Shown: piece after piece, positions 1-20,889 of the stretch
How positions within the stretch are numbered: the first letter of the stretch is position 1
Layout of the letters: each line of letters starts with the position of its first letter
Source: a virus
Reading direction: 5' to 3' (one strand)
DNA length: 64,000 nt
IMG/VR virus record: IMGVR_UViG_3300027653_000012
Coordinates: 502-64,501 of that record
Translations under genes and position numbers: made by a program
The notes under the pieces: model-generated
Database searches by the model: none
Told to the model about the DNA's origin: nothing
The model's input: the letters and a program-made list of their open reading frames with translations, nothing else

Positions 1-320
1 CCAAGTGGCCAGATCAACAGATTGCTGACGACAACCAAGCAGACGCGCTTTGGGTCTTGGAAACCGGGAGGGCAGCGCTGTGAAGATTGTGATAAAGAAG
101 ATCAAACGGAACTGGATATCCCGGAGAAGGACACGGCGGATACAGTATCCTCGTCACCGATCGATTCAAGAGAACGTGAACGAGCATCGTCGGTACATTT
201 GGATCAAATGTCTGTTTTGCGAGGCATTTTTATTAAGAAGCCTCGATCGAGCAGGCCGCAATCGGAAAGGGTTTTTTCACCTTTGCTGCGAGTGCAGTCC
301 GCGGATTTTGGAGGAGGACA

Positions 321-452
321 ATGAGTAGATACAAGATCGATCCTCCTCACGACTGCGAGATGGACGGCCATGACTGGCGCCGAATCGGATCACACCCGGA
401 CGGGACAACCTTTCACAGATGCCGTATCTGCGGGAAAGAGGACGAAGCATGA
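321..452 (+). CDS. Small Zn-ribbon-like protein (43 aa)
   Basis: MSRYKIDPPHDCEMDGHDW...RCRICGKEDEA; below the ORF-track cutoff. Confidence 0.6.
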   Translation: MSRYKIDPPHDCEMDGHDWRRIGSHPDGTTFHRCRICGKEDEA

Positions 453-474
453 AACCGATCCTCTATTCTGTATC

Positions 475-576
475 GGCTAACGACAAGATCACTCACGGAC
501 CTGAATCGTCCGAAAACCAGAAGTCTTAACGAAAAACCGGGCGGCTTACTCCGTTGAGTGCATCCCCTGGTTCGAC
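475..576 (-). repeat. attC-like site 1
   Basis: ggctAAC gacaa gatc actca cgga ... tccg t tgagt gcatc ccctg GTTcgac. Confidence 0.7.
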
Positions 577-589
577 TCAAAAACGACCT

Positions 590-832
590 ATGAAAAACAA
601 GACATTCGAGCAAGAGTTCAAGGAACTCATCTGTAAATACGACGTGGATCTACAATTCGTGGATAATTCATACGGAAATCTACCTGGCGTAAATTTTTGC
701 GTAGGCGAGAAGATCGTGTGTTCCGCAGCCAAGGACGGCGGATGGAACTTCGGTGATGGATTTATGCCGCTTTACGCTATCGCCGATTCCCTGTCGAACG
801 TCGAGCTGAGGCAACCCGACTCAAAACTATGA
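590..832 (+). CDS. Hypothetical cassette protein
   Basis: ATG at 590; ends SNVELRQPDSKL through attC 2. Confidence 0.7.
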   Translation: MKNKTFEQEFKELICKYDVDLQFVDNSYGNLPGVNFCVGEKIVCSAAKDGGWNFGDGFMPLYAIADSLSNVELRQPDSKL

Positions 833-898
833 AAAACCAGAAGACTCAAACGAATAACCCGGCGCGTAAACCGGGTTGCCTCCAGCGGTTTGTTCGAG
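793..898 (-). repeat. attC-like site 2
   Basis: gtcgAAC gtcga gctg aggcaacccg ... cgggttgcct c cagc ggttt GTTcgag. Confidence 0.9.
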
Positions 899-1158
899 GA
901 TTGATCGTGCGCCTGCTCCGATGGCTTCCGATTTCCGAAGCCAGCGCCGCATACAAGGAGGCTGTGCTTCTGGAGCTTGGGTTTCGGCGGAGTGAATTTC
1001 CGGGGTGCTGGCATGTGCCGGACTCCTGCGCGGAACGGTATGGACTGGAGGGACGCACGAGCTATCGAGAATGGATCATTCTGAAAAAGGTGGGGATGAG
1101 ACTTCCCTCGAACGTCGAGCTGAGGGACGGCGGGACCAAAACTGAAAACAAGGACTGA
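829..1158 (+). CDS. Hypothetical cassette protein
   Basis: ATGA overlap inside the attC 2 loop; ends PSNVELRDGG. Confidence 0.7.
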   Translation: MKNQKTQTNNPARKPGCLQRFVRGLIVRLLRWLPISEASAAYKEAVLLELGFRRSEFPGCWHVPDSCAERYGLEGRTSYREWIILKKVGMRLPSNVELRDGGTKTENKD

Positions 1159-1236
1159 ATCTATGGAAAATCAAAAAGTAAAAACAGACACGGACGGCGC
1201 TGATACCCGCCGTTCCTCTCCAGCGTCTGGTTCGGA
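1107..1236 (-). repeat. attC-like site 3
   Basis: Minus strand reads TCCGAAC CAGAC GCTGGAGAGGAACGGCGGG ... CCCGCCGTCCCTCAGC TCGAC GTTCGAG. Confidence 0.9.
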
Positions 1237-1444
1237 ATCGTCTGCTGTTGATCTCGACCGCATTGTAAGGAATCCGTGTCCATTTTGCGGAGGCGCACCC
1301 GTAGAGAAGAGGATGGCTTCCGGGCATGTCAAAATCGAGTGTCCTGACTGCCGATCCTCGACGCGTGTTTATCGGTCACCATCCTTCGCGTGGCTAACTT
1401 GGAATCATCGCCATTCTGTTCCGAACCAACAACAAAGATCATGA
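1163..1444 (+). CDS. Lar-family restriction-alleviation-like Zn protein
   Basis: PCPFCGG ... CPDC ... A..WN.R pattern. Confidence 0.75.
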   Translation: MENQKVKTDTDGADTRRSSPASGSESSAVDLDRIVRNPCPFCGGAPVEKRMASGHVKIECPDCRSSTRVYRSPSFAWLTWNHRHSVPNQQQRS

Positions 1445-1560
1445 AAAACCAAAATAGCAACGATAAGGTGATGCGCGAGGGCTCATCGCCACAGGAATCA
1501 GAAACCCGCTCCACCGAAGAGAACGGCGGGGTGGGTGTTGGCTGCACGAACTCGTTGGGC
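1420..1560 (-). repeat. Degenerate/hybrid attC-like site 4
   Basis: tccgAAC at 1420, second AAC gataag gtg near 1458, cac gaactc GTTgggc ending at 1560; arms pair poorly. Confidence 0.5.
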
Positions 1561-2193
1561 GTTATCCGCTCGGTCTATTACAACCAAGACGACATCCTTC
1601 GTGGCATCCAGCAACTGCACTGCCCAGAAGGGTTCGAGTGCGACATGACCTATGGAAACGGAGGGTTCTGGAGGAATCTGCCGCGCCCGAAATACTGCTT
1701 CGACATCTCTCCACAGAAACCCGAGGTAATAAAGGCGTGCTCGATGGCACTTCCGTTGGAAAGAGAGAGTCTTCGGAACTGCGTGTTCGATCCTCCCTTC
1801 CTCACCTACGTGAAAAACGGGAGGGGACATCAAGGTGGCAAAGTGGCGATGACTGCCCGCTTCGGCGGATACTACCGATATGACGAATTGGAAGACCACT
1901 ACCGACACACAATCAGCGAGGCGTGGCGAGTGTTGAAACCGGGCGGCAAGATGATCTTCAAATGTCAGGACATCATCCATAACCACAAGATGCACTGCAC
2001 GCACTATCGAACGATAATGATGGCGGAAATCGAAGGATTCCGGCTACTAGACCTATTCGTCCTGCCTGCACGCCACCGGATGCCGGGACCGCAAAAAGGG
2101 ACGCAGCGACACGCGAGGGTGTTTCACTCTTACTTTTTGGTGTTCGTCAAGCCGGGAAAACTTCCTCCGCCCAACGTAAAGCGTAGCCGATGA
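1441..2193 (+). CDS. DNA amino-methyltransferase (N6A/N4C type)
   Basis: DMTYGNGGF SAM motif, FDPPF catalytic motif, EAWRVLKPGG. Confidence 0.85.
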   Translation: MKNQNSNDKVMREGSSPQESETRSTEENGGVGVGCTNSLGVIRSVYYNQDDILRGIQQLHCPEGFECDMTYGNGGFWRNLPRPKYCFDISPQKPEVIKACSMALPLERESLRNCVFDPPFLTYVKNGRGHQGGKVAMTARFGGYYRYDELEDHYRHTISEAWRVLKPGGKMIFKCQDIIHNHKMHCTHYRTIMMAEIEGFRLLDLFVLPARHRMPGPQKGTQRHARVFHSYFLVFVKPGKLPPPNVKRSR

Positions 2194-2300
2194 GGCGTCG
2201 CTCACCCGTGATAAACAAAACTACTTATGACTCACGAAAACCAAAATATGAACGACAACGCGGGCCGTGAAACCTCATTGGCTACCGCGGTTGGTTCGGC
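2169..2300 (-). repeat. attC-like site 5
   Basis: gcccAAC gtaaa gcg tagccgatgagg ... cctcattggcta c cgc ggttg GTTcggc. Confidence 0.9.
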
Positions 2301-2529
2301 TAGGCGCATCCGAGTTCTATTCTGGATCGACTGGCTCGGGGAGCAAATGGAGGCGATCCGCGAAATCGAAAGCCCGCCTGTAAGCAACCATCCGGACCCG
2401 AACATCCAACACGGGTCCGACGTGCGATTGGTGCAAGCATGGATGAAGGCGAACGATGTCCCTAGCGGGACGTTCTTTTCCATTTTGCCGAACGTAGAGG
2501 CTAGGCGTGAGGGCCGGTCTGAAAACTAA
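2227..2529 (+). CDS. Hypothetical cassette protein
   Basis: Starts in the attC 5 loop, ends LPNVEARR in attC 6. Confidence 0.7.
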   Translation: MTHENQNMNDNAGRETSLATAVGSARRIRVLFWIDWLGEQMEAIREIESPPVSNHPDPNIQHGSDVRLVQAWMKANDVPSGTFFSILPNVEARREGRSEN

Positions 2530-2614
2530 CACAAACAAAGGAGACAAACAAAATGAAGAAAGATATACAGAAACGCGGCAGTCGGCCCGAATTGCCTACG
2601 CCGTCTGGTTCTCG
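2487..2614 (-). repeat. attC-like site 6
   Basis: gccgAAC gtaga ggc taggcg tga gggccg ... cggccc gaat tgccta c gcc gtctg GTTctcg. Confidence 0.85.
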
Positions 2615-3122
2615 GTCCGATACGCCGGAGACCGATGCACTGGAAAGGGACGGATACCACTACGCGATGCACAATATGCGTGCAAAGCTAGTCCCGAGCG
2701 AGCACGCCCGCAAACTGGAGCGCGAGCGGGACGAACTCCGCGAATGGATCATGCAGGCTGCGCCTATACTTTTAGCCGCCGGCTGTATCGTCGTCGACGA
2801 GGCTGTCGAGCGACTGGACGAGATCGCGGGAGTGCGCGGTGTGCTGGAGCTGTGCCCGGTAGATTTTGTGGCTCCGGAGGCTAAGCCGCGATATGGATCG
2901 GCCGATGGTCCGTTGGAAGAACAACTGAGACAAGAGAACCGGGATCTAAGACGGGCGCTGACTCTTGCTGCCCGATGGGGGATTTCGAGCGATGGTTTTT
3001 CGGCGACCGTGGCTGATGAATTGCGCCGTTGGGTCATCAACGACATGCAAGATCCGTTCCCAGAGCTGCCTGGTTATTTGTTCGACCAAACCCCGTTCAC
3101 TAAACCAACGACAATCGAATAA
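2553..3122 (+). CDS. Hypothetical cassette protein (SDTPETD...ARKLERE phage family, possibly fused)
   Basis: AGGAG SD and ATG in the attC 6 loop. Confidence 0.75.
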   Translation: MKKDIQKRGSRPELPTPSGSRSDTPETDALERDGYHYAMHNMRAKLVPSEHARKLERERDELREWIMQAAPILLAAGCIVVDEAVERLDEIAGVRGVLELCPVDFVAPEAKPRYGSADGPLEEQLRQENRDLRRALTLAARWGISSDGFSATVADELRRWVINDMQDPFPELPGYLFDQTPFTKPTTIE

Positions 3123-3126
3123 CACT

Positions 3127-3555
3127 ATGACTTTTCATCCTCATTCTTATCGTGATCCTGATCCTGATCGGGATCGGGCCGAAATGCTTCAGGAATATCT
3201 ATCCGGCCTTCCAAAATTCCGCGAAGTAACTTCATATCCTGGTCTTCATTCCCGCCGTTCCTCTCCAGCGTCTTGTTCGGCTGATCGTTCTCCTGCGTGT
3301 CCTGATGGCCGTAAAGATTGTCGATTCTCTTACGAAGGCATGACAACGCTAATTCACAGCCCTATTCAATACGATAGGGAAGGGAATCCAGTCGGTGGGG
3401 GTGTAAATCGGGTGGACAAGGTGGCGAAATGTAGTGTCTGTCGTCGCGTGTGGATATCTCGACAATCGGAGTTAGAGGATACTCAAGGAAAGGTTCGTGA
3501 ATGGAATGATTCTCCGTCGAACGACCAAGGTGAGGGACGCGGACCCGAACAGTGA
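3127..3555 (+). CDS. Hypothetical Cys-rich cassette protein
   Basis: ATG at 3127; CPDGRKDC and CSVC; ends PSNDQGEGR. Confidence 0.6.
   Translation: MTFHPHSYRDPDPDRDRAEMLQEYLSGLPKFREVTSYPGLHSRRSSPASCSADRSPACPDGRKDCRFSYEGMTTLIHSPIQYDREGNPVGGGVNRVDKVAKCSVCRRVWISRQSELEDTQGKVREWNDSPSNDQGEGRGPEQ
3251..3281 (-). repeat. attC half site 7 (one arm only)
   Basis: cccgccgttcctctccagcgtcttGTTcggc is almost identical to the right arm of site 3; partner arm not found. Confidence 0.7.
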
Positions 3556-3628
3556 AAGGTAAAATTATGAAGAAGAATAAGCAAACAGCGGCGGCTGGTC
3601 CGCGTTCCTCTCCAGCGACTGGTTCGGC
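3516..3628 (-). repeat. attC-like site 8
   Basis: gtcgAAC gacca aggtgagggacgcggacc ... ggtccgcgttcctctccagc gactg GTTcggc. Confidence 0.85.
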
Positions 3629-3908
3629 GTTTTCTCCGGGGGCGTGGTTCCTTATGCAATATGGCTTCGATTTCCAGAAGTTTTACATCATAGAAACTGT
3701 CGGTAACCGAATTTGTCTGTCGAAACGGGATTGGCTCGTGTCGAGTGGTGTATGGATGACACGCCGTGAGATGGAGGCCCGTCAAGCGCAATATATGGGA
3801 CACGGAAGGCGGAGATGGTTCTGGCGATGGCTACCATTCCGAGATTTGGTGGTGCCATTCTCTCCGCCGAACGCCGAACGGAGGCACCCGACCAGCGATG
3901 CAAAATAA
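3552..3908 (+). CDS. Hypothetical cassette protein
   Basis: GTGA overlap in the attC 8 loop; ends PPNAERR. Confidence 0.7.
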   Translation: MKGKIMKKNKQTAAAGPRSSPATGSAFSPGAWFLMQYGFDFQKFYIIETVGNRICLSKRDWLVSSGVWMTRREMEARQAQYMGHGRRRWFWRWLPFRDLVVPFSPPNAERRHPTSDAK

Positions 3909-3968
3909 CCTGAATCTTCTCGACAAATCCGGCGCGCCCATCGGGTTGCCTCCCGTGATTTGTTCTGG
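3866..3968 (-). repeat. attC-like site 9
   Basis: gccgAAC gccga acgg aggca cccga ... tcggg t tgcct c ccgt gattt GTTctgg. Confidence 0.9.
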
Positions 3969-4512
3969 AGTCGCTGGCATGGGCTCCCACCAATCCGCCA
4001 GGAGCGAGAAGGATGAATGGCTCACGCCGCCTGAGATCATCCGAGCACTCGGGGCGTTCGACCTTGATCCGTGTGCGCCGGTCAAGCGACCGTGGGAGAT
4101 GGCAGCGAGGCACTACACATGGCGGGATAACGGGCTGCTGAAACCGTGGGAGGGTCGAGTGTGGTGCAATCCTCCATACGGGCGGGAAACGGGGCGCTGG
4201 CTGGCAAGGTGCGCGGAGCACAGAAACGCTACGGCGTTGATCTTCGCCCGGACGGAAACCGCCGACTGGGTAAAGCACGTGTGGGGCGCGGCTCATTCCG
4301 TGATGTTCCTTTTCGGGAGGCTACACTTTTATCACGTGGACGGGCGTCGGGCCGAGGCGAACTCGGGGGCTCCGTCCGCGCTGATCGCATACGACGATCG
4401 GAACACGTCCGCCTTGGAAGCGTGTGGACTTCCGGGGCGGTTGATAAGACTCCACAACGACAAGAGGAGGAATCCCGAACAACCAAAGGAACCGAATGAA
4501 GACCAAGACTGA
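3898..4512 (+). CDS. Phage DNA N6-adenine methyltransferase (Dam-like phage family)
   Basis: DEWLTP, FDLDPCA, DNGL..PW, VWCNPPYG, ARTET, GRLHF motifs. Confidence 0.9.
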   Translation: MQNNLNLLDKSGAPIGLPPVICSGVAGMGSHQSARSEKDEWLTPPEIIRALGAFDLDPCAPVKRPWEMAARHYTWRDNGLLKPWEGRVWCNPPYGRETGRWLARCAEHRNATALIFARTETADWVKHVWGAAHSVMFLFGRLHFYHVDGRRAEANSGAPSALIAYDDRNTSALEACGLPGRLIRLHNDKRRNPEQPKEPNEDQD

Positions 4513-4577
4513 ACAGAAACCCAGCGATGCTACGAACGGCCGCGATGCAAGGGATTGCCTCCCTCGCCTGGTTCGGA
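4452..4577 (-). repeat. attC-like site 10
   Basis: ccacAAC gacaa gagg agg aatccc ... gggatt g cct c cctc gcctg GTTcgga. Confidence 0.85.
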
Positions 4578-4858
4578 GCTGGGGAAATACCGATTACGCA
4601 ATCATCGCTCGGCTTACTCCGCCGTATGATCTCGTGGCCCATCCGAATGGTCCGGCCATCACCAACGGCGATTGGTTTTCGGTGATCGATATACATCCCG
4701 ATGACAGCGATAAAGAGAAAGCGATCAAACGAGAGGCGCAAGAGAAGTGGCGTATATTTTCATGGCCACTGATAAAATCCAAATTCTTTCCTCCGAACAA
4801 GCAGTTCGACGAATCCGCCCAGATGCCTACAGACACAAGTGACAACAACAAACATTAA
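4496..4858 (+). CDS. Hypothetical cassette protein
   Basis: Starts in the attC 10 loop; reads PPNKQF through the terminal site. Confidence 0.7.
   Translation: MKTKTEQKPSDATNGRDARDCLPRLVRSWGNTDYAIIARLTPPYDLVAHPNGPAITNGDWFSVIDIHPDDSDKEKAIKREAQEKWRIFSWPLIKSKFFPPNKQFDESAQMPTDTSDNNKH
4792..4810 (-). other. attI-like simple recombination site closing the array
   Basis: Minus strand GTCGAAC-TGCTT-GTTCGGA: two inverted 7-bp cores with a 5-bp spacer and no long arms. Confidence 0.55.
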
Positions 4859-4890
4859 CCAATAAGCGAGATATAGAAAACAACTAAAGA

Positions 4891-5196
4891 ATGAACAAAC
4901 TAATACAGACTATCGAACAATGGGGCGAAGATCGAAATATCATTGGCCCGGATGCTAAAGCGACACTCGAAACGCAATTCCTCAAACTCGAAGAAGAGGT
5001 GAGCGAAATCCACGAGGCAATCGCCAAGAAAGATGACATCGGAATCGTCGATGGCATCGGCGATGCAGTGGTTGTGCTGACACTGCTTGCAAGACTTGCG
5101 GGAACCGATCTGGAAGCGTGCGTAAACCATGCCTATCACGAGATCAAGAATCGCACGGGCAAGATGGAAAACGGGATGTTTGTGAAGGATGAGTGA
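4891..5196 (+). CDS. MazG-like nucleotide pyrophosphohydrolase
   Basis: KLEEEVSE ... DGIGD ... AYHEIKNRTGKMENGMFVK. Confidence 0.9.
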   Translation: MNKLIQTIEQWGEDRNIIGPDAKATLETQFLKLEEEVSEIHEAIAKKDDIGIVDGIGDAVVVLTLLARLAGTDLEACVNHAYHEIKNRTGKMENGMFVKDE

Positions 5197-5452
5197 TTTA
5201 GTGAATAAGGAACTCGAAGAGGAACCACAAAGCCGACGTGATCCTAACTTTAGCAAGTGGGCGATTACCATGGAGGGTGTCCGAGTGCTTGTTCTTCCCA
5301 GCAGAATTAAAAGCGTCTATTTGGACAGGAGACTACTGTCGGCAGCAGAAACCGCGTGGAATGCTGCCCGGAAACTTTACTCAACCGCGGCGACTGAGCA
5401 CTGCGCTGACGATAACACAAACCCAATAACCGAAGACCGTGAGAAGGACTAA
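5189..5452 (+). CDS. Hypothetical protein
   Basis: Overlaps both neighbours in the operon. Confidence 0.6.
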   Translation: MSDLVNKELEEEPQSRRDPNFSKWAITMEGVRVLVLPSRIKSVYLDRRLLSAAETAWNAARKLYSTAATEHCADDNTNPITEDREKD

Positions 5453-5756
5453 CAAAACGATTAAAACATCATCCTACAAAGGGCCAATCAAATACGGAAA
5501 TACTGCTGACTGCATCACCGCCGTGTGCGATTCTATAAAACAGATGCTCCTGGAAAAGAACAAAGCTTACGGAGATAGTGCTATAGATCCGGTAAGGATT
5601 TTTAGCAAATCTCCTGTAGAGGAACAGATTAAGGTTCGCATCGACGACAAACTGTCTCGTATCGCTCGCGGCAATGAATTCCCAGGAGAAGACACTATCG
5701 ATGATTTAATCGGATATCTCATACTTCTGAAAATCGCTAAACTCAAACAACAGTAA
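5439..5756 (+). CDS. Nucleotide-modification-associated all-alpha NTP-PPase-like protein (Nmad1/DUF1599-like)
   Basis: KNKAYGDS ... VRIDDKLSR ... EDTIDDLIGY. Confidence 0.75.
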   Translation: MRRTNKTIKTSSYKGPIKYGNTADCITAVCDSIKQMLLEKNKAYGDSAIDPVRIFSKSPVEEQIKVRIDDKLSRIARGNEFPGEDTIDDLIGYLILLKIAKLKQQ

Positions 5757-5762
5757 CCAATC

Positions 5763-6212
5763 ATGTCTTCATTTAACAAAGTCATTCTAATGGGCAACCT
5801 GGTGCGCGACCCAGAGTTGCGAATAGCGGCGTCCGACCTGCCTGTCTGCAAGTTCACAATGGCAGTGAATCGCCGCTTTGCCCGAAAGGACGGGGAAATA
5901 GCAGAGGAAGTTTGCTACATCGATGTCACCGCGTTTGGGCGCAGAGCCGAAGTTCTTGCCGACCACATGCAAAAAGGAAGCCCTATTCATATTGAGGGCC
6001 GCTTACAACTAGAACAATGGGAGGATTCAAACACAGGCCAGAAGCGAAGCAAGATAGGCGTCATCCTTGAGTCTTTCTCCTTCGTCGGATCAAAGAACAA
6101 GGACGAAGACGATGGTGTTTCTCTAAAGGATTATTCAGCAAAGAAACAGTCTGCGCCTGTCAAGAACACAACAAGCCAGTCTGAGTATGATGAAGAGGAT
6201 GTTCCTTTTTAA
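5763..6212 (+). CDS. ssb: Single-stranded DNA-binding protein
   Basis: NKVILMGNLVRDPELR, IEGRLQ, acidic C-terminal EDVPF. Confidence 0.97.
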   Translation: MSSFNKVILMGNLVRDPELRIAASDLPVCKFTMAVNRRFARKDGEIAEEVCYIDVTAFGRRAEVLADHMQKGSPIHIEGRLQLEQWEDSNTGQKRSKIGVILESFSFVGSKNKDEDDGVSLKDYSAKKQSAPVKNTTSQSEYDEEDVPF

Positions 6213-6256
6213 AATCATAATTACAAATCACATTCATCACAGAAAAAAGGACAACA

Positions 6257-6460
6257 ATGAGTGAGGTTATCAGATTCAAGCCCGGCTATTATAAAGGGGT
6301 TTCCGCGATATTTGAGGACCCTAAATCGGAAAGCGAAATCATTATCATGGCTCCAGATATTTCCCGCCTCGAAAAGCATCTGGCAAGATGGACGCTGGAC
6401 TGGAGGAAGGAGCTGTTCAAGCCAGCGAGGCTGGTCTTGCTCAATAAGAAAGAGACATAA
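6257..6460 (+). CDS. Hypothetical protein
   Basis: AAGGA SD; fills the gap between ssb and rep. Confidence 0.6.
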   Translation: MSEVIRFKPGYYKGVSAIFEDPKSESEIIIMAPDISRLEKHLARWTLDWRKELFKPARLVLLNKKET

Positions 6461-6468
6461 CCGCCGAT

Positions 6469-7395
6469 ATGTCTGGTTGGATTAAATTGCACCGCTCGAT
6501 TCTAGACCATCCGAGAGCGTCAGACCCCGATTGGGTTGCTGTCTGGATTTACCTGCTCGTCAACGCGGCGCACAAACCTCAGCGAGCACTATTCAATGGC
6601 AAGATAATAACCCTCGAACCCGGTCAACTTTTGACCGGTAGAAAGGTCATTTCGGAGGCAACAGGAGTCGGTGAACCAAAGACCAAACGCCTGCTTTATA
6701 CGATGGAAAGGGAGGGGCAAATTAGGCGCAAAAGTAGCCACAAAGGATCGCTAATCTCGATAAAAAACTGGGGCGAATATCAGGGAGATGGTGGACAACT
6801 GAATGGACAACAAGAAAAATCCCTAACCCCCTTACAGTTTGGCATTAATGAAAGAGAAAAAAACGAAACGGACAGCAGAACGGACAACTGGTGGACAACT
6901 GGTGGACAACTGAATGGACAACAAAAAGAACTCCTAACTACCTTGAAATCTGACACTAACGAAACGAGAGAAAAACAAAGTGGACAACTGGATTCTCGGA
7001 AAGTGGACACTGTACAAGAAGACAAGAATAAGAATATAGAGGATACTGACGTATCCTCTCGTCCATCGAAAAAGCCTGATCCAAAAAATACCGAGAAATA
7101 CCAGAAAATCGCCGACGCCTGGAACGAACTGAACGGCCTTCCAAAAGTCGAGCGGCTGACAGACAAACGCAAAACAAGCCTCCGATCCCGACTCTCCGAT
7201 CCGTATTGGCGCGAAAACTGGCAACGGGCGATGGAGCAAATCCCGTCGAGCGACTTCCTTTCCGGACGAAAAACGAAATGGCGAGCAACCTTCGACTGGT
7301 TCATCCGACCGGAATCGGTCGTCAAGATCATCGAAGGCCAATACCACGACGGCGCCCGACAGCCGACCATCTATTCCGATTCCGAAAAATATTGA
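6469..7395 (+). CDS. Phage replication initiator (replisome organiser/DnaD-like)
   Basis: MSGWIKLHR N-terminus, ISIKNWGEYQ, central repeats, C-terminal W.ATFDW...KIIEGQY. Confidence 0.9.
   Translation: MSGWIKLHRSILDHPRASDPDWVAVWIYLLVNAAHKPQRALFNGKIITLEPGQLLTGRKVISEATGVGEPKTKRLLYTMEREGQIRRKSSHKGSLISIKNWGEYQGDGGQLNGQQEKSLTPLQFGINEREKNETDSRTDNWWTTGGQLNGQQKELLTTLKSDTNETREKQSGQLDSRKVDTVQEDKNKNIEDTDVSSRPSKKPDPKNTEKYQKIADAWNELNGLPKVERLTDKRKTSLRSRLSDPYWRENWQRAMEQIPSSDFLSGRKTKWRATFDWFIRPESVVKIIEGQYHDGARQPTIYSDSEKY
6790..7010 (+). repeat. Iteron-like GGACAAC(TGAAT/TGGT) repeats; probable replication origin
   Basis: Seven GGACAAC copies inside rep, mostly at 11-12 bp spacing, next to A-rich tracts. 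Confidence 0.75.
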
Positions 7396-7400
7396 TAACA

Positions 7401-8273
7401 ATGACCATGACCGTAGAGACCACCAAGACCACCAACCCACAATCAGTAGTGCTCCGAGTTTTCGAGGCAGTAGGCTTCCGCATCGCCAATGATCCCGACG
7501 CTCGATCACAATGGGAACAACTGCTCGTATCCACCTGGAGCAACCGTGACGATGTGTGGCAACCAGGACGCTGCAAAGGCTGCGCGAAGATGATTGCTAG
7601 CCAAGCCAGCGAGATCGACAACGAAAACACCGACAACCCGTTCCTCGCCGCAATCAGGTCTCACGTGGCAACAGTGTGCGGGGCCTGTACTCGCTTGGCG
7701 GACGATCACTACCACAACCTCGGACGACAACCAGTCAAGGCTGGATGGTGGGAGACCAACTGCCCGCCAACCTTTCAGACACTACTCGCCGACCGAACAG
7801 CCGAAAAGGTCGACTGGAGACGTGTCGAAACGGTCGAGAAATGGAATTTTAAAAGAAAAGCGAAAGGACTGATCCTCACTGGCGACACAGGATCAGGCAA
7901 AACAACCGCTCTGTGGGGTCTAGCAAGGCGTTTAAAGAAGGAAGGTAGGCATCTCTACCTGTTGACATCGATCGAGCTTTCTAGACGGCTTCAAGCGGCC
8001 GCAAAAGAAATGCAGGCAGACCACGACCTCCTTCACTGCGATTTCCTGCTCATCGACGACCTCGGAAAAGAAAAGCTAACCACAACCGTCGGTGCAGCTC
8101 TCTACGAGCTAATGGACCAACGACTCGCCCACAACCGATGGATGGCATTCACCACCCGATTCACCGGCGACCAACTCGAAGACCGATTCATAGACACACA
8201 CCTTGGCCGAGACATCCGCCGCCGCATCCAAGATGCTTGCACACACCTACGATTCAAAGGAGGCGGGATCTAA
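7401..8273 (+). CDS. DnaC/IstB-like helicase loader ATPase
   Basis: GDTGSGKT Walker A, LLIDDLGKE Walker B; directly after rep. Confidence 0.92.
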   Translation: MTMTVETTKTTNPQSVVLRVFEAVGFRIANDPDARSQWEQLLVSTWSNRDDVWQPGRCKGCAKMIASQASEIDNENTDNPFLAAIRSHVATVCGACTRLADDHYHNLGRQPVKAGWWETNCPPTFQTLLADRTAEKVDWRRVETVEKWNFKRKAKGLILTGDTGSGKTTALWGLARRLKKEGRHLYLLTSIELSRRLQAAAKEMQADHDLLHCDFLLIDDLGKEKLTTTVGAALYELMDQRLAHNRWMAFTTRFTGDQLEDRFIDTHLGRDIRRRIQDACTHLRFKGGGI

Positions 8274-8274
8274 G

Positions 8275-8556
8275 ATGAAACAAAAACAACCAACACGATG
8301 GCCCAGCTTCGGAGCACGCAGAAAATCTCACCCGACCATCTCACCCGGCCAACCATTCATCTATCTCGGTCGCAGCATGCGCGTCACAACGGTATCGCGA
8401 AAACTCATCACAGCCCACTACGTCAACAATTCCGGAAACATCCAAACAATCACCATCCCAACCGACGCAGCCAAAACTTGCATCCCAACCCCTACAGACT
8501 CACCCGACACAGAAATCGACAACGACAACGACCCACGATTCGTCGAACTCAACTAA
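8275..8556 (+). CDS. Hypothetical protein
   Basis: ATG just after the loader stop codon. Confidence 0.6.
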   Translation: MKQKQPTRWPSFGARRKSHPTISPGQPFIYLGRSMRVTTVSRKLITAHYVNNSGNIQTITIPTDAAKTCIPTPTDSPDTEIDNDNDPRFVELN

Positions 8557-8582
8557 CCACTAAAAACACACGAACAAAAGAC

Positions 8583-8717
8583 ATGATCGTAAAACCCATC
8601 CAAGGAGCTTGCCCAACATGCTGGAGAAGAAAAGCACGAGCAATCCCATGGAAACCAGGAACAACCTGCTGGAACTGCGGACTCCCAAAATCTAAACCAA
8701 AACCCAAACCTCCCTAA
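8583..8717 (+). CDS. Small Zn-ribbon protein
   Basis: CPTC ... CWNC in 44 aa. Confidence 0.55.
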   Translation: MIVKPIQGACPTCWRRKARAIPWKPGTTCWNCGLPKSKPKPKPP

Positions 8718-9043
8718 CCACCCCAGCCAAAACCACCACGATCACCCTCCTCAAAATTCTCATCCAACCAACAACCAGCCCCACGATACAGAGCCTTACC
8801 AGGCATCCAACAACCACATCCCAAACTACTCCCAACCTCCGGCCTACACCTCCGAAGACGACGATCATACACCGGACAAACTGAACACGCCCGCATCCTC
8901 CTGCGCCACTCCACACGCGATACCCTCCCACTACCAACCAAACGAAACCAGCCAACCACTACCCCAAACAGGACCCAAATACCAACCTCACCAACACCAA
9001 CACAAACAACACGAAACCAACAACAAATACGCCGAAAACCCAT
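8714..9043 (-). CDS. Cys-rich Zn-binding protein
   Basis: RRMRACSVCP ... C ... GCGCWMPGK ... CW; start placed at internal ATG 9043. Confidence 0.65.
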   Translation of the reverse strand: MGFRRICCWFRVVCVGVGEVGIWVLFGVVVGWFRLVGSGRVSRVEWRRRMRACSVCPVYDRRLRRCRPEVGSSLGCGCWMPGKALYRGAGCWLDENFEEGDRGGFGWGG

Positions 9044-9689
9044 AACTACAACCCATGACAACAAAACCACAGGCCCGCAAACCAGAAAGTTGAGAAGAGC
9101 GGTATATATAAAAACTGGCGACCAATACCCATTTCCCCCCTCCCCGCCCCCTATTTTGACCTCTTTTTTATGCTGTTTTTGCAGGCGTTTTTTGGCCTGT
9201 AATCTCATTGTAGTGAGATTACATGACCATACGTAAACCGCTTATTTACAATAACTTGCGACATTGAAGAGTGTTAACTCAAGCAAGTTTATCGCAAGAA
9301 CAACTGGAAAAGCCAAAGATTGCTAAAATCCTGAACTCAAGAAACGGAGTGCTTGATTGATCCAATTTGAATGGCTTGTCGTGACTGTTGCAATGGCTTG
9401 AAACGTATGCCTTCCACCCTGTTTTGCGTCTACCCTATCAGTTTGCTTTGTCGTTGACTTTGAACGGTTTAAGGTAGTTTTTGAGCGGATAAAATGGTTT
9501 GAGAACTGTATCCATGCATGTTTGGCAGTCTGTATGTGTTTTGGCAGTGATATTATATCAAATTTTATCCTACGGATTGACTTGTCAATTGTGTATTTGT
9601 TTTGGTTGTCATAAGTCTTTGATGTTGAACAAGATACTTGTGTGGTTTTGTGCTGATTTTGAAACGTTTTATGAGGTTTTTGCTAGATG

Positions 9690-10123
9690 TAGACGCCGTC
9701 CGACGGGACGACATAGGAAACTGGCATGGGTCCAGCGTCTAGGGCCCTCTCTCGGTTGAGCGAGCCAGTGGCTGAAGCGAAGCTTCCTGAAAGCGTGTGC
9801 GCGAATCCTGATAGCAGAAAGCTGTGGATAGGGAAGGCCTTGCGAAAGCAAGGCGGGAAAGACCCAACCCAATGGGTGAATCCGATAGCGAATCCGATAG
9901 CGATTTGTCAAAAAGTTAAAAGTCTACTTTTGGCAATCGCAAGGGTTTTTAAAAGGTGCAAGGAGCCTTTCCATTCTTTGGCAATTAGCAACTGCTAGAG
10001 ACTTGGTTGAACCTAGCGGAAAAGACTGAAGTGAAATCTAACTTTAAATCGAAACGGCTGGAATCCCTAAAAAACGAAACTGTCACGCGGTTTCATAAGC
10101 GCAAAAAAGGGATTTCAACCGTC
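9690..10123 (+). ncRNA. Candidate large structured leader/ncRNA ending at the hammerhead 1 cleavage site
   Basis: Dense stems: tagacgc/gcgtcta, actggc/gccagt, gccttgc-GAAA-gcaaggc, gcgatttgtcaaaaagt/acttttggcaatcgc; no convincing ORF. Confidence 0.5.
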
Positions 10124-10160
10124 TTGCGTCTTGGCAAAGCGCAACTGATGAGATTGCCAC
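10047..10160 (+). ncRNA. Type II hammerhead ribozyme 1
   Basis: aatc-GAAA-stem III (cggctggaatccct/agggatttcaaccg)-GTC-stem I (ttgcg/cgcaa)-CTGATGA-gatt; cleavage after 10123. Confidence 0.9.
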
Positions 10161-10188
10161 AAAAAATAAGTAAAAAGGATAAATTAAG

Positions 10189-10575
10189 ATGAAAAACACA
10201 ACTCCATTTGAAACGGTTAAAACCATCAATCGCGAAGGGAAGAAAGTCTTGTCGCGAAAGCGATTTGGCGAAATCCATGGCTTGAAAGGCGCCGAACTGA
10301 AGCGGCGCCATTACGAATATCTGCTTTCAAATCCCTTAAGCGATATGGTCCAGAACGTCACCTGGTCCAGGGTGACCAGGAATCCAAAAACCGGGCACGT
10401 CTCGGCCAGCGGCTATGATGCCGCGGCCATGGCAAAGAAGGCGCCGAAAGCGCCGCGGCGCAGGAAGGCGAAGGTCGTGTCGATCACCGATGCGATGGCC
10501 GTCCTCCAGGCGGCCGCTCAAGAGGGCAATCAACAAGCAATTGCCGCCCTTGAGGCGGTTGTTGCCGGTCAGTAA
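10189..10575 (+). CDS. Basic hypothetical early protein
   Basis: AAGGA SD; flanked by hammerheads 1 and 2. Confidence 0.8.
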   Translation: MKNTTPFETVKTINREGKKVLSRKRFGEIHGLKGAELKRRHYEYLLSNPLSDMVQNVTWSRVTRNPKTGHVSASGYDAAAMAKKAPKAPRRRKAKVVSITDAMAVLQAAAQEGNQQAIAALEAVVAGQ

Positions 10576-10581
10576 TATAAA

Positions 10582-10650
10582 TCGAAACACGCACTGCAAA
10601 CGCGGTGCGTGTCTTGCGTCTTGGCAAGACGCAACTGATGAGAACGCCAT
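10582..10650 (+). ncRNA. Type II hammerhead ribozyme 2
   Basis: tc-GAAA-cacgcactgc/gcggtgcgtg-TC-ttgcgtc/gacgcaa-CTGATGA-ga; cleavage after 10613; stem II only about 2 bp. Confidence 0.85.
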
Positions 10651-10670
10651 AACAAACAAACAAGGATACC

Positions 10671-10853
10671 ATGAGTAACGCAGAAATTGTCAAAAAAATC
10701 GAGGCCGCGAAAGCGGCGGCTGGCTTCAATGACCAAATCAAGGTCATTGAAGCCCTGAACGAGGTGCTGGAGCATCTCCGCCGGGAAGAGCGGGTTGTGG
10801 ACGCGCGGGAAGATTCCATGTCTTATGACCGGAGCTTCCTCGCCGGTCAGTGA
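10671..10853 (+). CDS. Small hypothetical early protein
   Basis: AAGGA SD; between hammerhead 2 and the twister. Confidence 0.75.
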   Translation: MSNAEIVKKIEAAKAAAGFNDQIKVIEALNEVLEHLRREERVVDAREDSMSYDRSFLAGQ

Positions 10854-10889
10854 GTGCAATGTTCCTTGACGTTATGTGACGTCAGGGAA

Positions 10890-10959
10890 CTGGTTAATGC
10901 AACCTGGCTATCTTGGATGGTCAGACGGTTCCAAGTCCGTGTAAATGCAGAGGAACCAG
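10890..10959 (+). ncRNA. Twister ribozyme (type P1)
   Basis: P1 ctggt/accag, T^AA, P2 tgca/tgca, P3 tggctatc/gatggtca, P4 acgg/ccgt with loop ttccaagt, L1 GAGGA. Confidence 0.9.
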
Positions 10960-11062
10960 AGGTTCGCTGTGAACCTCGCTTACGGTCGGATGTTACTCCG
11001 AATCCGGCTGTGAGACAGATGACCGATCGGAGCAAGACGCGTGAGAGGCGCGCTTTTTAGAC

Positions 11063-11344
11063 ATGAAAACACTTACAAGAAAAGAACTGGCGGGAACGTC
11101 ATTCAATATGGGCCTCTCCATCATGCATGGAGAGTCCCGGCAGGTAGTTCGGTTCGGCGCGTGTCAATACGCAACCGACACCTCCGCCACCGTCATCAAG
11201 GACGGTGGAGACATCGTTCTCATCACCGAGAGTAGTCTCGGTGATGGCAGCCGTCCTGAACATCGGGAGGTCCTGGTCCGCCCCGTTTGGGTCGGGGGCT
11301 GGGATGCCGACCCAGAAAAAGAGGAGGACTGGCTACTTCTCTAA
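11063..11344 (+). CDS. Hypothetical early protein
   Basis: ATG after a hairpin cluster; MKT start typical of this operon. Confidence 0.65.
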   Translation: MKTLTRKELAGTSFNMGLSIMHGESRQVVRFGACQYATDTSATVIKDGGDIVLITESSLGDGSRPEHREVLVRPVWVGGWDADPEKEEDWLLL

Positions 11345-11400
11345 CACACGAATGCCGCTCTGCGAGTAACAGAGCGGCTGATTAACCACAAAAAGAAAAA

Positions 11401-12754: not shown

Positions 12755-12757
12755 AAC

Positions 12758-19857: not shown

Positions 19858-20889
19858 TTGAAATTCAGAAGAAACAAAAAGAGCAATATCATCTACGTTG
19901 AGTTCAAGGGTGAGAATGGCCGCGTATCCATGTCCACCCGCACCCGCGACATGGCAGAAGCAAAGGCGCTCGCCGAAGAAATAGGCATAGCCCATATCGA
20001 ACAGCTGGCCCGCCTCAATGCCATGGCTGCCGGAGCAGTGCAGCTTGCTATTTCTGGGAGACAGATCAAAGGGAGCCAGGCACTCAAAGAATGGAAGGAG
20101 TACTTGGAGCGCGTCTCACGCAGCACGCGTACAATCGAAAACAACCTGTGGTCAGTCAAAAGATTCTTGCGGCATCAGAACCTTGGCAACCGCCCGATCT
20201 CTGCGGTGTCGGAGGTTCACGTAGATGACTTCATCAACGACAAGAACTCGAAAGTAGTGGCTTCCACCCGGCGTCGCAATCTTACAGCCGTCCGATCCTT
20301 TCTTGAGTTTTGCACAGCCAAGAGATACATCATGAGCAATCCGGCTGTACTTGTTCCTGTGAAGCTTGAAAACATGACCCACAGCCAGAAGGAACCAAAG
20401 AGAGTTCAGCCGTTCACCGCCCACGAGGTGAAGAAGATGACCACTTTGTTACAAGGGGAATGGAGGCCCGCGGTTATTATTGCACTCGATGCAGGACTTC
20501 GCCTCGGCGATGTTTGCAAGCTTGAGTGGGACTCGTTTGACACAGAGCCAGGCCGGATTGTTGTCTGGACAGACAAGCGTGACAAGCGTGTCAGCCTCCC
20601 AATGACCGACCGTCTTCGCGATCTGAAGTCCGAACTCCCGCGCAAGAGTAAGCGATGGGTGCTCCCCTCACTCGCCAAAGACTATCAGGCAAGCCAGTCT
20701 TCCGTGTCGGTGAATTTCGGTAGGGAGCTTCGCAAGATTGGAATCGCCAAGGGGAAGAGTTTTCAAAGCCTCCGCGCTACCTTCGCCCGGAGGTGGCGAG
20801 GCTACGGAAAGACGGTTGACGAGATCCGCGAAGCCCTGGGCCACGACGACGAGGCGACGACGAAGAAGCATTACTTAGGAGAGAAATAG
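19858..20889 (+). CDS. int: Tyrosine recombinase/integrase
   Basis: SAM-like domain, AGLRLGD, K, QSLR (HxLR variant), LGH, C-terminal Y. Confidence 0.9.
   Translation: MKFRRNKKSNIIYVEFKGENGRVSMSTRTRDMAEAKALAEEIGIAHIEQLARLNAMAAGAVQLAISGRQIKGSQALKEWKEYLERVSRSTRTIENNLWSVKRFLRHQNLGNRPISAVSEVHVDDFINDKNSKVVASTRRRNLTAVRSFLEFCTAKRYIMSNPAVLVPVKLENMTHSQKEPKRVQPFTAHEVKKMTTLLQGEWRPAVIIALDAGLRLGDVCKLEWDSFDTEPGRIVVWTDKRDKRVSLPMTDRLRDLKSELPRKSKRWVLPSLAKDYQASQSSVSVNFGRELRKIGIAKGKSFQSLRATFARRWRGYGKTVDEIREALGHDDEATTKKHYLGEK

What the first reader, a model, noticed from the sequence alone, without database searches (positions are those of the whole stretch)
475..4810. Phage-borne integron-like cassette array loaded with phage genes
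Seen: about ten long imperfect inverted repeats separate the accessory genes. On the minus strand they have attC geometry (core-AAC, 5-nt spacer, arm with extrahelical bases, variable loop, arm, 5-nt spacer, GTT-core). The right core of a site is complementary to the left core of the NEXT site, usually better than to its own: gttcgac/gtcgaac, gttcgagg/cctcgaac, gttcggaa/ttccgaac, gttgggcg/cgcccaac, gttcggc/gccgaac, gttcggcg/cgccgaac, gttcggag/ctccgaac; gttctggagtc/gactccacaac matches 10 of 11. Established: this is the footprint of cassettes that existed as circles and were inserted by IntI-type recombination at G|TT. Inference: the phage shuffles its own accessory genes (two DNA methyltransferases, a Lar-like protein, unknowns) as cassettes, probably using a host IntI in trans.
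Basis: partly seen in the sequence, partly recalled or inferred. Interest (0 to 1): 0.95.

Follow-up and report, generated by a model that had tools for sequence, protein, structure and literature searches.

The report
Reversed integron-type gene cassettes in phage
A temperate phage keeps about ten small accessory genes, including two DNA methylases and an anti-restriction gene, as integron-style swappable cassettes whose genes all face the opposite way to those in bacterial integrons.

Summary
Window 474-4798 holds 8 complete attC-type folded sites, one site with cores only, one right half and one lone end core, between ten + strand genes of a 64.5-kb phage. A simple descriptor expects 0.05 such sites in 4.5 kb. 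The cores flanking each gene are complementary (7-8 nt in 7 of 10 genes; no permutation of 100,000 reached the observed sum). The geometry matches canonical attC at nucleotide level: AAC/GTT cores, 5-nt unpaired spacers, extra bases at positions 16/(20)/23-24, last one T. A covariance model built only from six canonical attCs puts its four best window hits on these sites, all on the minus strand.

The same site family occurs in 20 metagenome and 2 other viral contigs. Near-identical contigs differ by whole cassettes, with breakpoints exactly at the AAC core.

Differences from bacterial integrons: genes lie on the recombining (bottom) strand, the start codon sits inside the site loop, and the crossover AAC is an in-frame Asn codon (10 of 10 here). 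No IntI is encoded, so the enzyme is unknown.

Phage attC clusters are published (Qi 2023), but I found this reversed, frame-locked design in no paper. This scan has noted the same design before on other DNA.

The parts
474..577 (-). Site s0, complete attC-type site. attC top strand = minus strand. Distal end of the array.
   Evidence: Descriptor score 20, arms 13/15. Canonical-attC model hit 476-577 on the minus strand, 11.9 bits, E 2.2.
590..832 (+). Cassette gene, 80 aa, unknown function. Start lies 20 nt after the right core.
   Evidence: ORF list. No Pfam or PHROG match. Flanked by GTTCGAC / GTCGAAC, 7 nt.
792..899 (-). Site s1, complete.
   Evidence: Descriptor score 25. Best canonical-model hit in the window: 793-899 minus, 22.9 bits, E 0.003. 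DNA fold gives the attC-like shape.
829..1158 (+). Cassette gene, 109 aa, unknown. ATG lies in the loop of s1.
   Evidence: Flanked by GTTCGAGG / CCTCGAAC, 8 of 8.
1106..1237 (-). Site s2, complete, with three extra bases at positions 16, 20 and 23/24 (C, T, T on the + strand).
1163..1444 (+). Cassette gene, Lar-like restriction alleviation protein, 93 aa.
   Evidence: PF14354 E 2.5e-10. phrog_599. Flanked by GTTCGGAA / TTCCGAAC, 8 of 8.
1419..1561 (-). Site s3, degenerate: both cores present, no pairing arms.
   Evidence: Flexible arm search found at most 5 paired bases. The cores still match their cassettes 8 of 8 on both sides.
1441..2193 (+). Cassette gene, DNA methyltransferase, 250 aa.
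   Evidence: phrog_24333 E 3e-71 over residues 40-245, which is from the right core (residue 38) to the AAC codon (residue 245). PF01555 26.4 bits, just under its cut-off. Flanked by GTTGGGCG / CGCCCAAC, 8 of 8.
2168..2301 (-). Site s4, complete.
   Evidence: Descriptor score 23.
2227..2529 (+). Cassette gene, 100 aa, unknown.
   Evidence: Flanked by GTTCGGC / GCCGAAC, 7 nt.
2486..2615 (-). Site s5, complete. AAGGAG lies before the ATG in the loop.
   Evidence: Descriptor score 18. Sequence.
2553..3122 (+). Gene, 189 aa, unknown. Its 3' end lacks a matching core.
3250..3282 (-). Site s6, right half only: arm, 5 nt and GTT core, nearly identical to the right half of s2.
3127..3555 (+). Gene, 142 aa, unknown.
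3515..3629 (-). Site s7, complete.
   Evidence: Descriptor score 18. Canonical-model hit 3516-3629 minus, 14.9 bits.
3567..3908 (+). Cassette gene, 113 aa, unknown.
   Evidence: Flanked by GTTCGGCG / CGCCGAAC, 8 of 8.
3865..3969 (-). Site s8, complete.
   Evidence: Descriptor score 22. Canonical-model hit 3866-3969 minus, 16.4 bits. The same site occurs between other sequences in runs X2-X4.
3898..4512 (+). Cassette gene, Dam-type N6-adenine DNA methyltransferase, 204 aa.
   Evidence: PF05869 E 1.5e-13. phrog_111 E 4e-42 over residues 27-173. Flanked by GTTCTGGAGTC / GACTCCACAAC, 10 of 11.
4451..4578 (-). Site s9, complete.
   Evidence: Descriptor score 20.
4496..4858 (+). Last cassette gene, 120 aa, unknown.
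   Evidence: Flanked by GTTCGGAG / CTCCGAAC, 8 of 8.
4791..4798 (-). Lone left core (CTCCGAAC). This is the end of the array where new cassettes would enter.
   Evidence: No arms follow it. The same layout, a lone in-frame core after the last cassette, is seen in L002, L003 and L049.
19858..20889 (+). The only tyrosine recombinase of the record, 343 aa, Xer-like. It is not an integron integrase by model, and no link to the array is shown.
   Evidence: TIGR02249 54.8 bits against a cut-off of 265. PF00589 plus a SAM-like N-domain. 22% identity to IntI1, with gaps where IntI1 has its extra segment. PF00589 finds no second copy.

Best explanation
Window 474-4798 is an integron-type gene-cassette array without an integron integrase (a CALIN in IntegronFinder terms), carried in the early region of a temperate phage. 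It is built in mirror image to bacterial arrays.

Each cassette consists of the following parts, in this order on the + strand:
- the C of an AAC triplet;
- a 5-nt spacer;
- a bulged hairpin whose 50-77-nt loop carries the stop of the previous gene and, mostly, the ribosome site and start codon of the next;
- a 5-nt spacer;
- a GTTnnnnn core;
- the gene body;
- the complementary nnnnnAA.

The gene-sense (+) strand has the geometry of the attC bottom strand. AAC lies 5' of the hairpin and the extra bases lie on the opposite arm. Cassettes are cut out and put in by a tyrosine recombinase of the integron/Xer kind, which cleaves between A and C of the folded sense strand. New cassettes enter at the lone core at 4791-4798.

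Because AAC is always an in-frame Asn codon, any upstream gene reads on in one fixed frame into the next site. It ends in that site's loop beside the next start. Cassettes can therefore be swapped without breaking termination or translational coupling.

Shown here: the site anatomy, the core complementarity, the cassette polymorphism at AAC in near-identical contigs of the same site family, and the frame rule.

Inferred: the circular single-stranded intermediate, translational coupling, and the enzyme. The enzyme is not encoded next to the array and is most likely supplied in trans by the host.

The cargo (two DNA methylases and a Lar-like protein) points to anti-restriction use.
For: 1. Anatomy. 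There are 8 complete sites in 4.1 kb against 0.05 expected. In all 8 the right arm on the + strand is longer by 1-4 nt.

2. Extra bases. Across 48 distinct sites of the family, the first extra base is at attC position 16 in 29 of the 45 that have one. The last extra base is T on the sense strand in 31 of 37. There are 5-6 pairs between first and last in 26 of 37. Nivina 2016 (PMC5027507, passages read) gives for canonical attC: extra bases at 16, (20), 23/24, the last a conserved T, a 6-bp stem between them, spacers of 5-6 nt, and extra bases opposite the AAC on the bottom strand.

3. Calibration. In real attCs of R46 and TJE1 the extra bases lie in the left arm on the gene-sense strand. Here they lie in the right arm.

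4. Covariance model from 6 canonical attCs. Its top 4 of 6 window hits are s1, s8, s7 and s0. All are full length and on the minus strand. In 81.2 kb of related loci, 22 of 23 hits lie on the strand opposite the genes.

5. Complementary cores across genes. In the window the sum is 62, against a maximum of 58 in 100,000 permutations. Over all loci, 19 of 35 adjacent pairs have >=7 nt. A site's own cores reach that in 2 of 35, and the background rate is 3.4%.

6. Polymorphism. L036 and L049 are about 99% identical over the aligned blocks. L036 has an extra 196-nt cassette with junctions ...GAGAAC|GATCA... and ...GCAGAAC|GCCTA.... At the lone-core end it has one further cassette plus a second copy of another.

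7. Frame. AAC is in frame in 10 of 10 genes here. In other loci the AAC frame is the longest open frame at 27 of 33 sites, p 1.4e-8.

8. Start codons lie inside the site at 29 of 39 sites.

9. The methylase homology lies between the two cores.
Against: - No integron integrase is encoded. The only tyrosine recombinase scores 54.8 bits against a cut-off of 265 and lacks the IntI-specific segment.
- The first extra base on the presumed bottom strand is C in 34 of 45 sites, not the usual G.
- The cores read GTTC(G/T)nn rather than GTTRRRY.
- Single-strand folds are not clearly more stable than shuffles, with z from -1.7 to +0.6.
- My canonical model is small. It reports only 4 of the 8 complete window sites at E up to 10, and only one of them has E below 0.01.
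- Exact-pattern scans found no bacterial chromosome with this site subfamily: 26 matches, none with a full site.
- The whole-cassette differences were seen in another phage lineage, not in relatives of this phage.
- 6 of 33 sites elsewhere break the frame rule.
- 16 of 35 adjacent pairs are below 7 nt. In the window two of these span a degenerate site that the descriptor missed (s3, s6); for the other loci the cause was not checked.
Confidence: 0.75

Rival explanations
1. The anatomy is the same, but the enzyme is the phage's own Xer-like tyrosine recombinase (19858-20889), acting both as lysogeny integrase and as cassette recombinase, or a similar 'insert-less' Xer-type enzyme of the host. 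It would then be an integron-like system that runs without a canonical IntI.
For: The phage enzyme has the Xer/IntI-type SAM-like N-domain, and its best NCBIfam matches are XerA, XerC and IntI. Notes of this scan on other DNA report like arrays beside small Xer-like recombinases that lack the IntI insert (e1-1159985, e1-5729963; unchecked by me). The first extra base is C rather than G, which hints at a different reader of the site.
Against: The gene lies 15 kb from the array, at the early/late junction where a lysogeny integrase is expected. Other array-bearing contigs carry unrelated integrases or none: the L040 integrase gave no tblastn match to this one at E <= 1e-3, G002 has only a 183-aa enzyme, and G001 (28% complete) has none. 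Apart from an SSB matched in L040, no ORF of this record had a BLASTP match at E < 1e-5 in the 13 other array-bearing contigs compared.
Confidence: 0.15
2. The repeats are RNA-level elements: hairpins in the polycistronic mRNA for translational coupling or RNA processing. They would be spread among genes by homologous or Red-type recombination, not by site-specific recombination.
For: The hairpins are on the sense strand, enclose the stop, ribosome site and start, and are read through in a fixed frame. A PDDEXK-type nuclease gene lies at 62788-63624.
Against: This does not explain why the cores flanking each gene, 200-750 nt apart, covary. It does not explain why a 196-nt unit whose hairpin looks unlike its neighbour's is inserted with only GAACG shared at the junctions. 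It does not explain why the extra bases keep attC positions 16/20/23-24. The right arm is translated in different frames, so the conservation is in the DNA.
Confidence: 0.05
3. The units are single-strand hairpin transposons of another kind (IS200/IS605-like or other HUH or Y1 enzymes) that only resemble attC by convergence.
For: Those elements also use folded single strands and short guide-target complementarity next to a hairpin (recalled, not tested).
Against: PF01797 (Y1 transposase) and PF00239 (serine recombinase) found nothing in the record; HUH/Rep families were not searched. The units have one hairpin per unit, not two subterminal ones. A model built only from canonical attCs hits the sites full length and in register.
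Confidence: 0.05

Closest known systems
CALINs (clusters of attC sites lacking an integron integrase) in phage genomes, Qi et al. 2023, Front Microbiol, PMC9892861 (abstract, section 3.4 and passages read). Example: Tetrasphaera phage TJE1.
   Same: A phage-borne row of attC sites with no IntI, lying in the early region beside SSB and recombination genes, with DNA methyltransferase cassettes. In TJE1 the cores flanking the genes are also complementary 8 of 8.
   Different: The three TJE1 sites are short (C-to-G distance 37-47 nt), and their extra bases lie in the arm next to AAC on the gene-sense strand, so its genes are in the canonical orientation. Here all ten genes lie on the bottom strand, the sites are 104-134 nt long, they contain the next gene's start, and there are ten cassettes. 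I could not see the paper's supplementary tables, which list all 17 CALINs, so one of those may be reversed too.
Classical integron attC sites and cassettes: class 1 integron of plasmid R46 and the features reviewed in Nivina et al. 2016, PMC5027507 (passages read).
   Same: AAC/GTT cores in a 7-8-bp R box; 5-nt unpaired spacers; extra bases at 16/(20)/23-24 with a terminal T and a 6-bp stem; a variable loop; crossover at AA|C; the core after a site belongs to the next cassette.
   Different: Here the genes are antisense to the attC top strand, a layout Nivina et al. say was never observed in integrons. The first extra base is C, not G. The cores are GTTC(G/T)nn. The start codon lies inside the loop and AAC is an in-frame Asn codon. 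There is no IntI and no recognisable attI or Pc promoter.
Insertion of integron cassettes outside att sites (attG sites), Loot et al., bioRxiv 10.1101/2022.09.11.507474 (only the search listing and the start of the abstract seen).
   Same: Single cassettes in L002 and L003 sit alone in phage genomes. Each has a hybrid left core and a lone right-hand core, as expected for insertion at a secondary site.
   Different: That work concerns IntI-driven insertion into bacterial genomes. Here the targets are phage genomes and the enzyme is unknown.
PeSL mobile regulatory cassettes of T4-type phages
   Same: Phage accessory genes flanked by stem-loop elements and proposed to shuffle as small circles.
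   Different: As I recall it, PeSLs are promoter plus stem-loop units thought to recombine by homology. The present sites have attC geometry and a defined crossover triplet.

Membership tests
Integron attC site | Inverted 7-nt cores with conserved 5'-AAC / GTT-3' that form the R box | tested here: met
   All 8 complete sites, plus s3, have both triplets. The cores read nnnCGAAC/GTTCGnnn rather than RYYYAAC/GTTRRRY.
Integron attC site | Unpaired central spacer of 5-6 nt on each arm | tested here: met
   Non-complementary 5-nt spacers on both sides in all 8 sites. The same setting scores best on the real attCs of R46.
Integron attC site | Extra-helical bases on the arm opposite the recombined AAC, at positions 16, (20), 23/24, with about 6 bp between the first and last | tested here: met
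   First extra base at position 16 in 29 of 45 sites. 5-6 pairs between first and last in 26 of 37. s2 has 16/20/23. Reference values come from PMC5027507.
Integron attC site | Identity of the extra bases on the bottom strand: usually G at 16, conserved T at 23/24 | tested here: inconclusive
   The last extra base is T in 31 of 37 sites, which fits. The first is C in 34 of 45 and G in 2 of 45, which does not.
Integron attC site | Length 57-141 bp with a variable terminal structure | tested here: met
   Complete sites are 104-134 nt from core end to core end, and their loops of 49-77 nt differ in sequence.
Integron attC site | Match to an attC covariance model | tested here: inconclusive
   The IntegronFinder model is not available here. 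My own model from 6 canonical sites gave 4 of 8 window sites as its top four hits (E 0.003, 0.15, 0.37, 2.2), and 23 hits in related loci.
Integron gene cassette | Crossover at AA|C, so that a cassette's two end cores are complementary and neighbours differ by whole cassettes at that point | tested here: met
   for complementarity. for the cassette presence/absence and duplication in L036 against L049, with GAACG shared at the junctions.
Integron gene cassette | ORF on the attC top strand, with attC downstream of its gene | tested here: not met
   All ten genes lie on the bottom-strand side and the site travels upstream of its gene.
Complete integron | IntI integrase with its specific additional segment, next to the array | tested here: not met
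   TIGR02249 54.8 bits against 265; NF011946 33.3 against 435; gaps against IntI1 at its extra segment; the gene lies 15 kb away.
Complete integron | attI site and Pc promoter at the entry end | tested here: inconclusive
   The window has AAC-N5-GTTCGAC at 4791-4810. The entry ends of L002, L003 and L049 show no common motif. No promoter test was done.
CALIN (cluster of attC sites lacking an integrase) | Two or more attC sites close together with no IntI nearby | tested here: met
   8 complete sites within 4.1 kb and no IntI in the 64.5-kb record.
Integron attC site | Recombined by an integron integrase in vivo, bottom strand preferred | not testable with these tools
   This needs the suicide-conjugation assay used by Qi et al. 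2023 and Nivina et al. 2016.

The most novel reading that the evidence does not exclude
Phages run their own cassette economy with a mirror-image integron design. The recombination hairpin sits upstream of its gene on the coding strand and supplies the stop for the previous gene and the start for its own. The crossover is locked to an in-frame Asn codon, so any cassette plugs into any array and is translated at once. The system works without a canonical integron integrase encoded by the phage, through an enzyme still to be identified. It moves anti-defence genes between phages that share almost no other genes.
Probability: 0.45. Interest if true: 0.9.

Novelty: new variant of a known kind. Interest (0 to 1): 0.8.

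Why it matters
How phages swap small accessory and anti-defence genes so freely is usually put down to homologous or illegitimate recombination. This array points to a defined site-specific route with a readable footprint, so cassette borders, cargo and exchange between unrelated phages can be mapped directly from sequence.

For integron biology it gives a natural case of cassettes in the orientation said never to occur. Its built-in translation signals do away with the need for the Pc promoter. It also gives a set of sites with canonical geometry but a different first extra base and no IntI at hand. That makes two questions testable: which enzymes can read attC-type hairpins, and where cassettes are made.

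Tried and rejected
- Megablast of window 1-12000 against 50,697 phage records: no match.
- Relatives through neighbouring genes. The DnaC-like protein gave none. The MazG-like protein gave 3 loci (L005-L007). L005 and L006 had no descriptor hit at score >=16; L007 had four, all in A+T-rich low-complexity sequence, which I do not count as sites.
- Genome-contig scan with one right-half pattern: 26 matches. None has a full site at the match. L008 lies in the 3' end of what I read, by eye from its translation, as a rho-like gene. L022 lies, by my reading of the DNA only, inside a coding region (no ORF or family call was run there), 4.7 kb from an unrelated IntI-like gene. So no chromosomal counterpart was found by this exact pattern. 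That is not proof of absence.
- tblastn of R46 IntI1 and of the phage integrase against all loci then held (L001-L003, L005-L053; L004, the query's source, left out) found no IntI beside any array.
- A search for a protein shared by array-bearing contigs as a candidate enzyme found only an SSB.
- Host clues. The atlas look-up of the terminase gave only viral clusters. The phage integrase against 401 Bacteroidota genomes gave 29 genomes with weak matches of 23-29% identity. Against five other genomes it gave none. The host stays unknown.
- Single-strand DNA folds of nine sites gave z from -1.7 to +0.56, not decisive because of the long loops.
- Read laying on runs X2-X5 (Logan contigs only, short and at low depth). 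Copies of s5, s8 and s9 lie between other sequences. One X5 contig joins an s5-like site, 326 other letters and then AAC plus s4, an order different from the window. Contigs cannot show circles, so no test of circular junctions was possible. Parts without cover mean nothing.
- Searches for print. (listings only, apart from PMC9892861 and PMC5027507) showed no paper on reversed or frame-locked phage cassettes.
- I did not build a family-specific covariance model, did not fold proteins and ran no complex prediction.

Full report
**What the window is.** The window is bases 502-64501 of a 64,501-base linear viral record, estimated 92% complete. It encodes a large terminase, an SSB (my reading of the 149-aa ORF at 5763-6212; it matches an ORF of L040 at 48% identity), a DnaC/IstB-like ATPase, a PDDEXK nuclease and one tyrosine recombinase. 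It has no close relative among 50,697 deposited phage records. The finding lies at the left end, upstream of a MazG-like gene (named from its sequence, no family call), the SSB and the replication genes. Ten genes, all on the + strand, fill 590-4858.

**Check of the observation.** I wrote a plain descriptor: AAC, 5 nt, an arm that pairs with bulges allowed, 60-180 nt in all, 5 nt, GTT.
- It finds 8 sites between 481 and 4571 and only two marginal ones in the other 59 kb.
- At score 18 or more it finds 8 in the array. Dinucleotide-matched random sequence gives 0.05 per 4.5 kb (200 trials, maximum 1) and 0.43 per 64 kb (30 trials).
- Two further positions are degenerate. s3 has both cores but no arms. 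s6 has only a right half, almost identical to that of s2.
- The array ends in a lone core at 4791-4798.

This holds. Contiguous matches are 7, 8, 8, 8, 7, 0, 5, 8, 3 (10 of 11 with one mismatch) and 8. Their sum is 62. Own cores sum to 33. Permuted partners give a mean of 39 and a maximum of 58 in 100,000. The pair GTTGGGCG/CGCCCAAC, which departs from the common GTTCGG on both sides of a 620-nt gene, is the clearest covariation.

**Which way round the sites are.** I calibrated on real attC sites.
- In the class 1 integron of plasmid R46 and in the published CALIN of phage TJE1, the descriptor recovers the known sites with 5-nt spacers. The extra bases lie in the arm next to AAC on the gene-sense (top) strand.
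- In the window, all 8 sites have the longer arm next to GTT on the gene-sense strand.
- Nivina et al. 2016 (PMC5027507, passages read) define the recombined bottom strand as the one whose extra bases lie opposite the AAC. They place those bases at 16, (20) and 23/24, the last a conserved T, with a 6-bp stem between first and last.
- By that definition the + strand here is the bottom strand.
- The positions agree. Across 48 distinct sites of the family, the first extra base is at position 16 in 29 of the 45 that have one. The last is T on the sense strand in 31 of 37. There are 5-6 pairs between them in 26 of 37. s2 has the full 16/20/23 pattern.
- One departure: the first extra base is C on the sense strand in 34 of 45, where G is usual.

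**Covariance-model test.** The IntegronFinder model is not available here. I built a model from six canonical sites only, three from R46 and three from TJE1, in top-strand orientation.
- With filters off on the whole window and both strands, it gave six hits at E up to 10. The best four are s1 (22.9 bits, E 0.003), s8, s7 and s0. All are full length, in register and on the minus strand.
- The model is small and pays for the 50-nt loops, so four complete sites fall below the list.
- On 81.2 kb of related loci it gave 23 hits at E up to 5. 22 of them lie on the strand opposite to the genes. The 23rd is the other strand of a near-perfect palindrome.

**Relatives of the site.**
- A right-half motif of s2/s6/s7 occurs in two other viral contigs.
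- A two-part motif occurs in 20 metagenome contigs.
- Many of these carry rows of like sites in which the exact reverse complement of a right core is the left core of the next site.
- Over the non-redundant set, 19 of 35 adjacent pairs match over 7 nt or more. Own cores do so in 2 of 35. Cores from different loci do so at 3.4%. Without the window the figure is 15 of 28. In the window the two widest failing pairs (over 900 nt) span s3 and s6, which the descriptor missed; I did not check the failing pairs of the other loci.
- L002 and L003 hold single cassettes. Each has a site upstream, a gene, and then a lone complementary core (8 of 8 in all three cases) with AAC in frame.

**Direct evidence of movement.** L036, L039 and L049 are contigs 98-100% identical over their long aligned blocks.
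- L049 reads ...TTTCGAGAAC|GCCTAGCTGAGGG.
- L036 reads ...TTTCGAGAAC|GATCA..., followed by a short hairpin, GTTCTGCT, a 62-codon gene and AAAGCAGAAC|GCCTAGCTGAGGG.
- So a 196-nt cassette is present or absent, with only GAACG shared at the junctions. Its own end cores are complementary 8 of 8. The canonical model also hits its small hairpin.
- At the end of the array, L049 has ...CAGCAGAAC followed by unrelated flank.
- L036 and L039 continue from the same AAC into another site. L036, read in full, has one more cassette (GTTGTGCC...GGCACAAC) and a second copy of the previous two-gene cassette, then the same flank; L039 ends 8 nt past the AAC.
- The breakpoints are therefore at the AAC core 5' of the hairpin on the gene-sense strand.
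- This fixes the cassette as hairpin plus downstream gene. It agrees independently with the orientation read from the extra bases.

These contigs are not relatives of the window's phage. For the window itself I have only Logan contigs of four runs from other samples. They show copies of s5, s8 and s9 between other sequences, and one contig with s5-like and s4 sites in a different order.

**The reversed design.**
- The AAC of the left core is an in-frame Asn codon in all 10 upstream genes of the window. The phase of GTT in the downstream gene varies.
- Elsewhere, the AAC frame is the longest open frame at 27 of 33 sites (p 1.4e-8).
- Read in that frame, the upstream gene ends 5-20 codons later, inside the loop and within about 35 nt of the next start.
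- A start codon of a long ORF lies inside the site at 29 of 39 distinct sites. It lies just after the site at 8 and is missing at 2.
- The right arm is translated in different frames in different cassettes, so the conservation is in the DNA.
- In both methylases, the part that matches the phage protein families runs from the right core to the AAC codon: residues 40-245 of 250, and 27-173 of 204 with the cores at residues 22 and 187. The leader and tail thus come from the sites.
- I infer that the fixed frame lets any cassette follow any other while keeping termination and translational coupling. This is not tested.

**The enzyme.**
- The record has one tyrosine recombinase and no Y1 transposase or serine recombinase.
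- That recombinase is Xer-like and far below the IntI model cut-offs. It lacks the stretch that IntI1 has between its conserved boxes.
- Other array-bearing contigs carry unrelated integrases or none.
- Apart from an SSB matched in L040, no ORF of this record matched any of the 13 other array-bearing contigs compared at E < 1e-5.
- An exact-pattern scan of one genome for each of 185,579 species found no chromosomal site of this subfamily.
- So a trans-acting enzyme is likely. Whether it is a host IntI, an insert-less Xer-type enzyme as notes of this scan suggest for other DNA, or the phage integrase is open.

**What is known.** Qi et al. 2023 (PMC9892861) found 17 CALINs among 10,705 phage genomes, reported methylase cassettes, and showed that IntI1 recombines five of six tested phage attCs. 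Phage-borne attC clusters are therefore known. The one I could check, TJE1, has canonical orientation. [quoted passage not shown] Five searches of the paper library listed nothing on reversed or frame-locked phage cassettes. Supplements were closed.

Notes of this scan report the same reversed layout in other phages (e1-6114118, e1-5214829, e1-5919517, e1-5962835). These are unchecked AI notes and are not independent evidence.

**Verdict.** The array is a new variant of a known kind. The main open point is the recombinase.

Noticed in passing
window 12757-12822 (+) and 15347-15412 (-): Rfam gathering-score matches: type II hammerhead ribozyme (45 bits against 37) and DUF3800-VIII RNA (64.4 bits against 40.2) in the early operon.
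   Followed up: partly
window 32355-32427 (+): A tRNA-Met gene (anticodon CAT) between the two late-gene blocks.
   Followed up: no
L004 (R46) 35208-38118 and L054 (TJE1) 77-1046: In canonical cassettes too, all 4 distinct ORFs that read through their own R'' core (OXA-2, orfD, TJE1 orf1 and orf2) have its AAC in frame as Asn. This is my arithmetic on the coordinates, and n is small. If general, the frame rule may be older than the reversed design.
   Followed up: partly
window 4791-4810: The lone end core is followed by 5 nt and GTTCGAC, which makes an inverted pair like a simple recombinase site. GTTCGAC is also the right core of s0. The entry ends of arrays in L002, L003 and L049 show no common motif, so I cannot tell whether this is an attI.
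   Followed up: partly
L036 (stored orientation) 3941-4470 and 4937-5490: A two-gene cassette is present twice in one array, with another cassette between the copies. The first copy's site has a small change in its right arm and spacer.
   Followed up: yes
window 19858-20889: In the alignment to IntI1, the phage tyrosine recombinase has FQSLR where IntI1 has HTLR, so it lacks the His of the usual HxxR box.
   Followed up: no
window loops of s0-s9: The loops are A-rich and purine-rich on the + strand (0.64, against 0.54 in the gene bodies). By eye only about half of the starts (s2, s5, s7, s9) have a Shine-Dalgarno-like motif. In the script's count across all loci 10 of 37 starts had one.
   Followed up: partly
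L056 (record G002) 1389-2022: The only tyrosine recombinase of this complete 43.6-kb phage is a 183-aa catalytic-domain ORF. An ORF in another frame overlaps its start, so the gene is either frameshifted or a short form.
   Followed up: no
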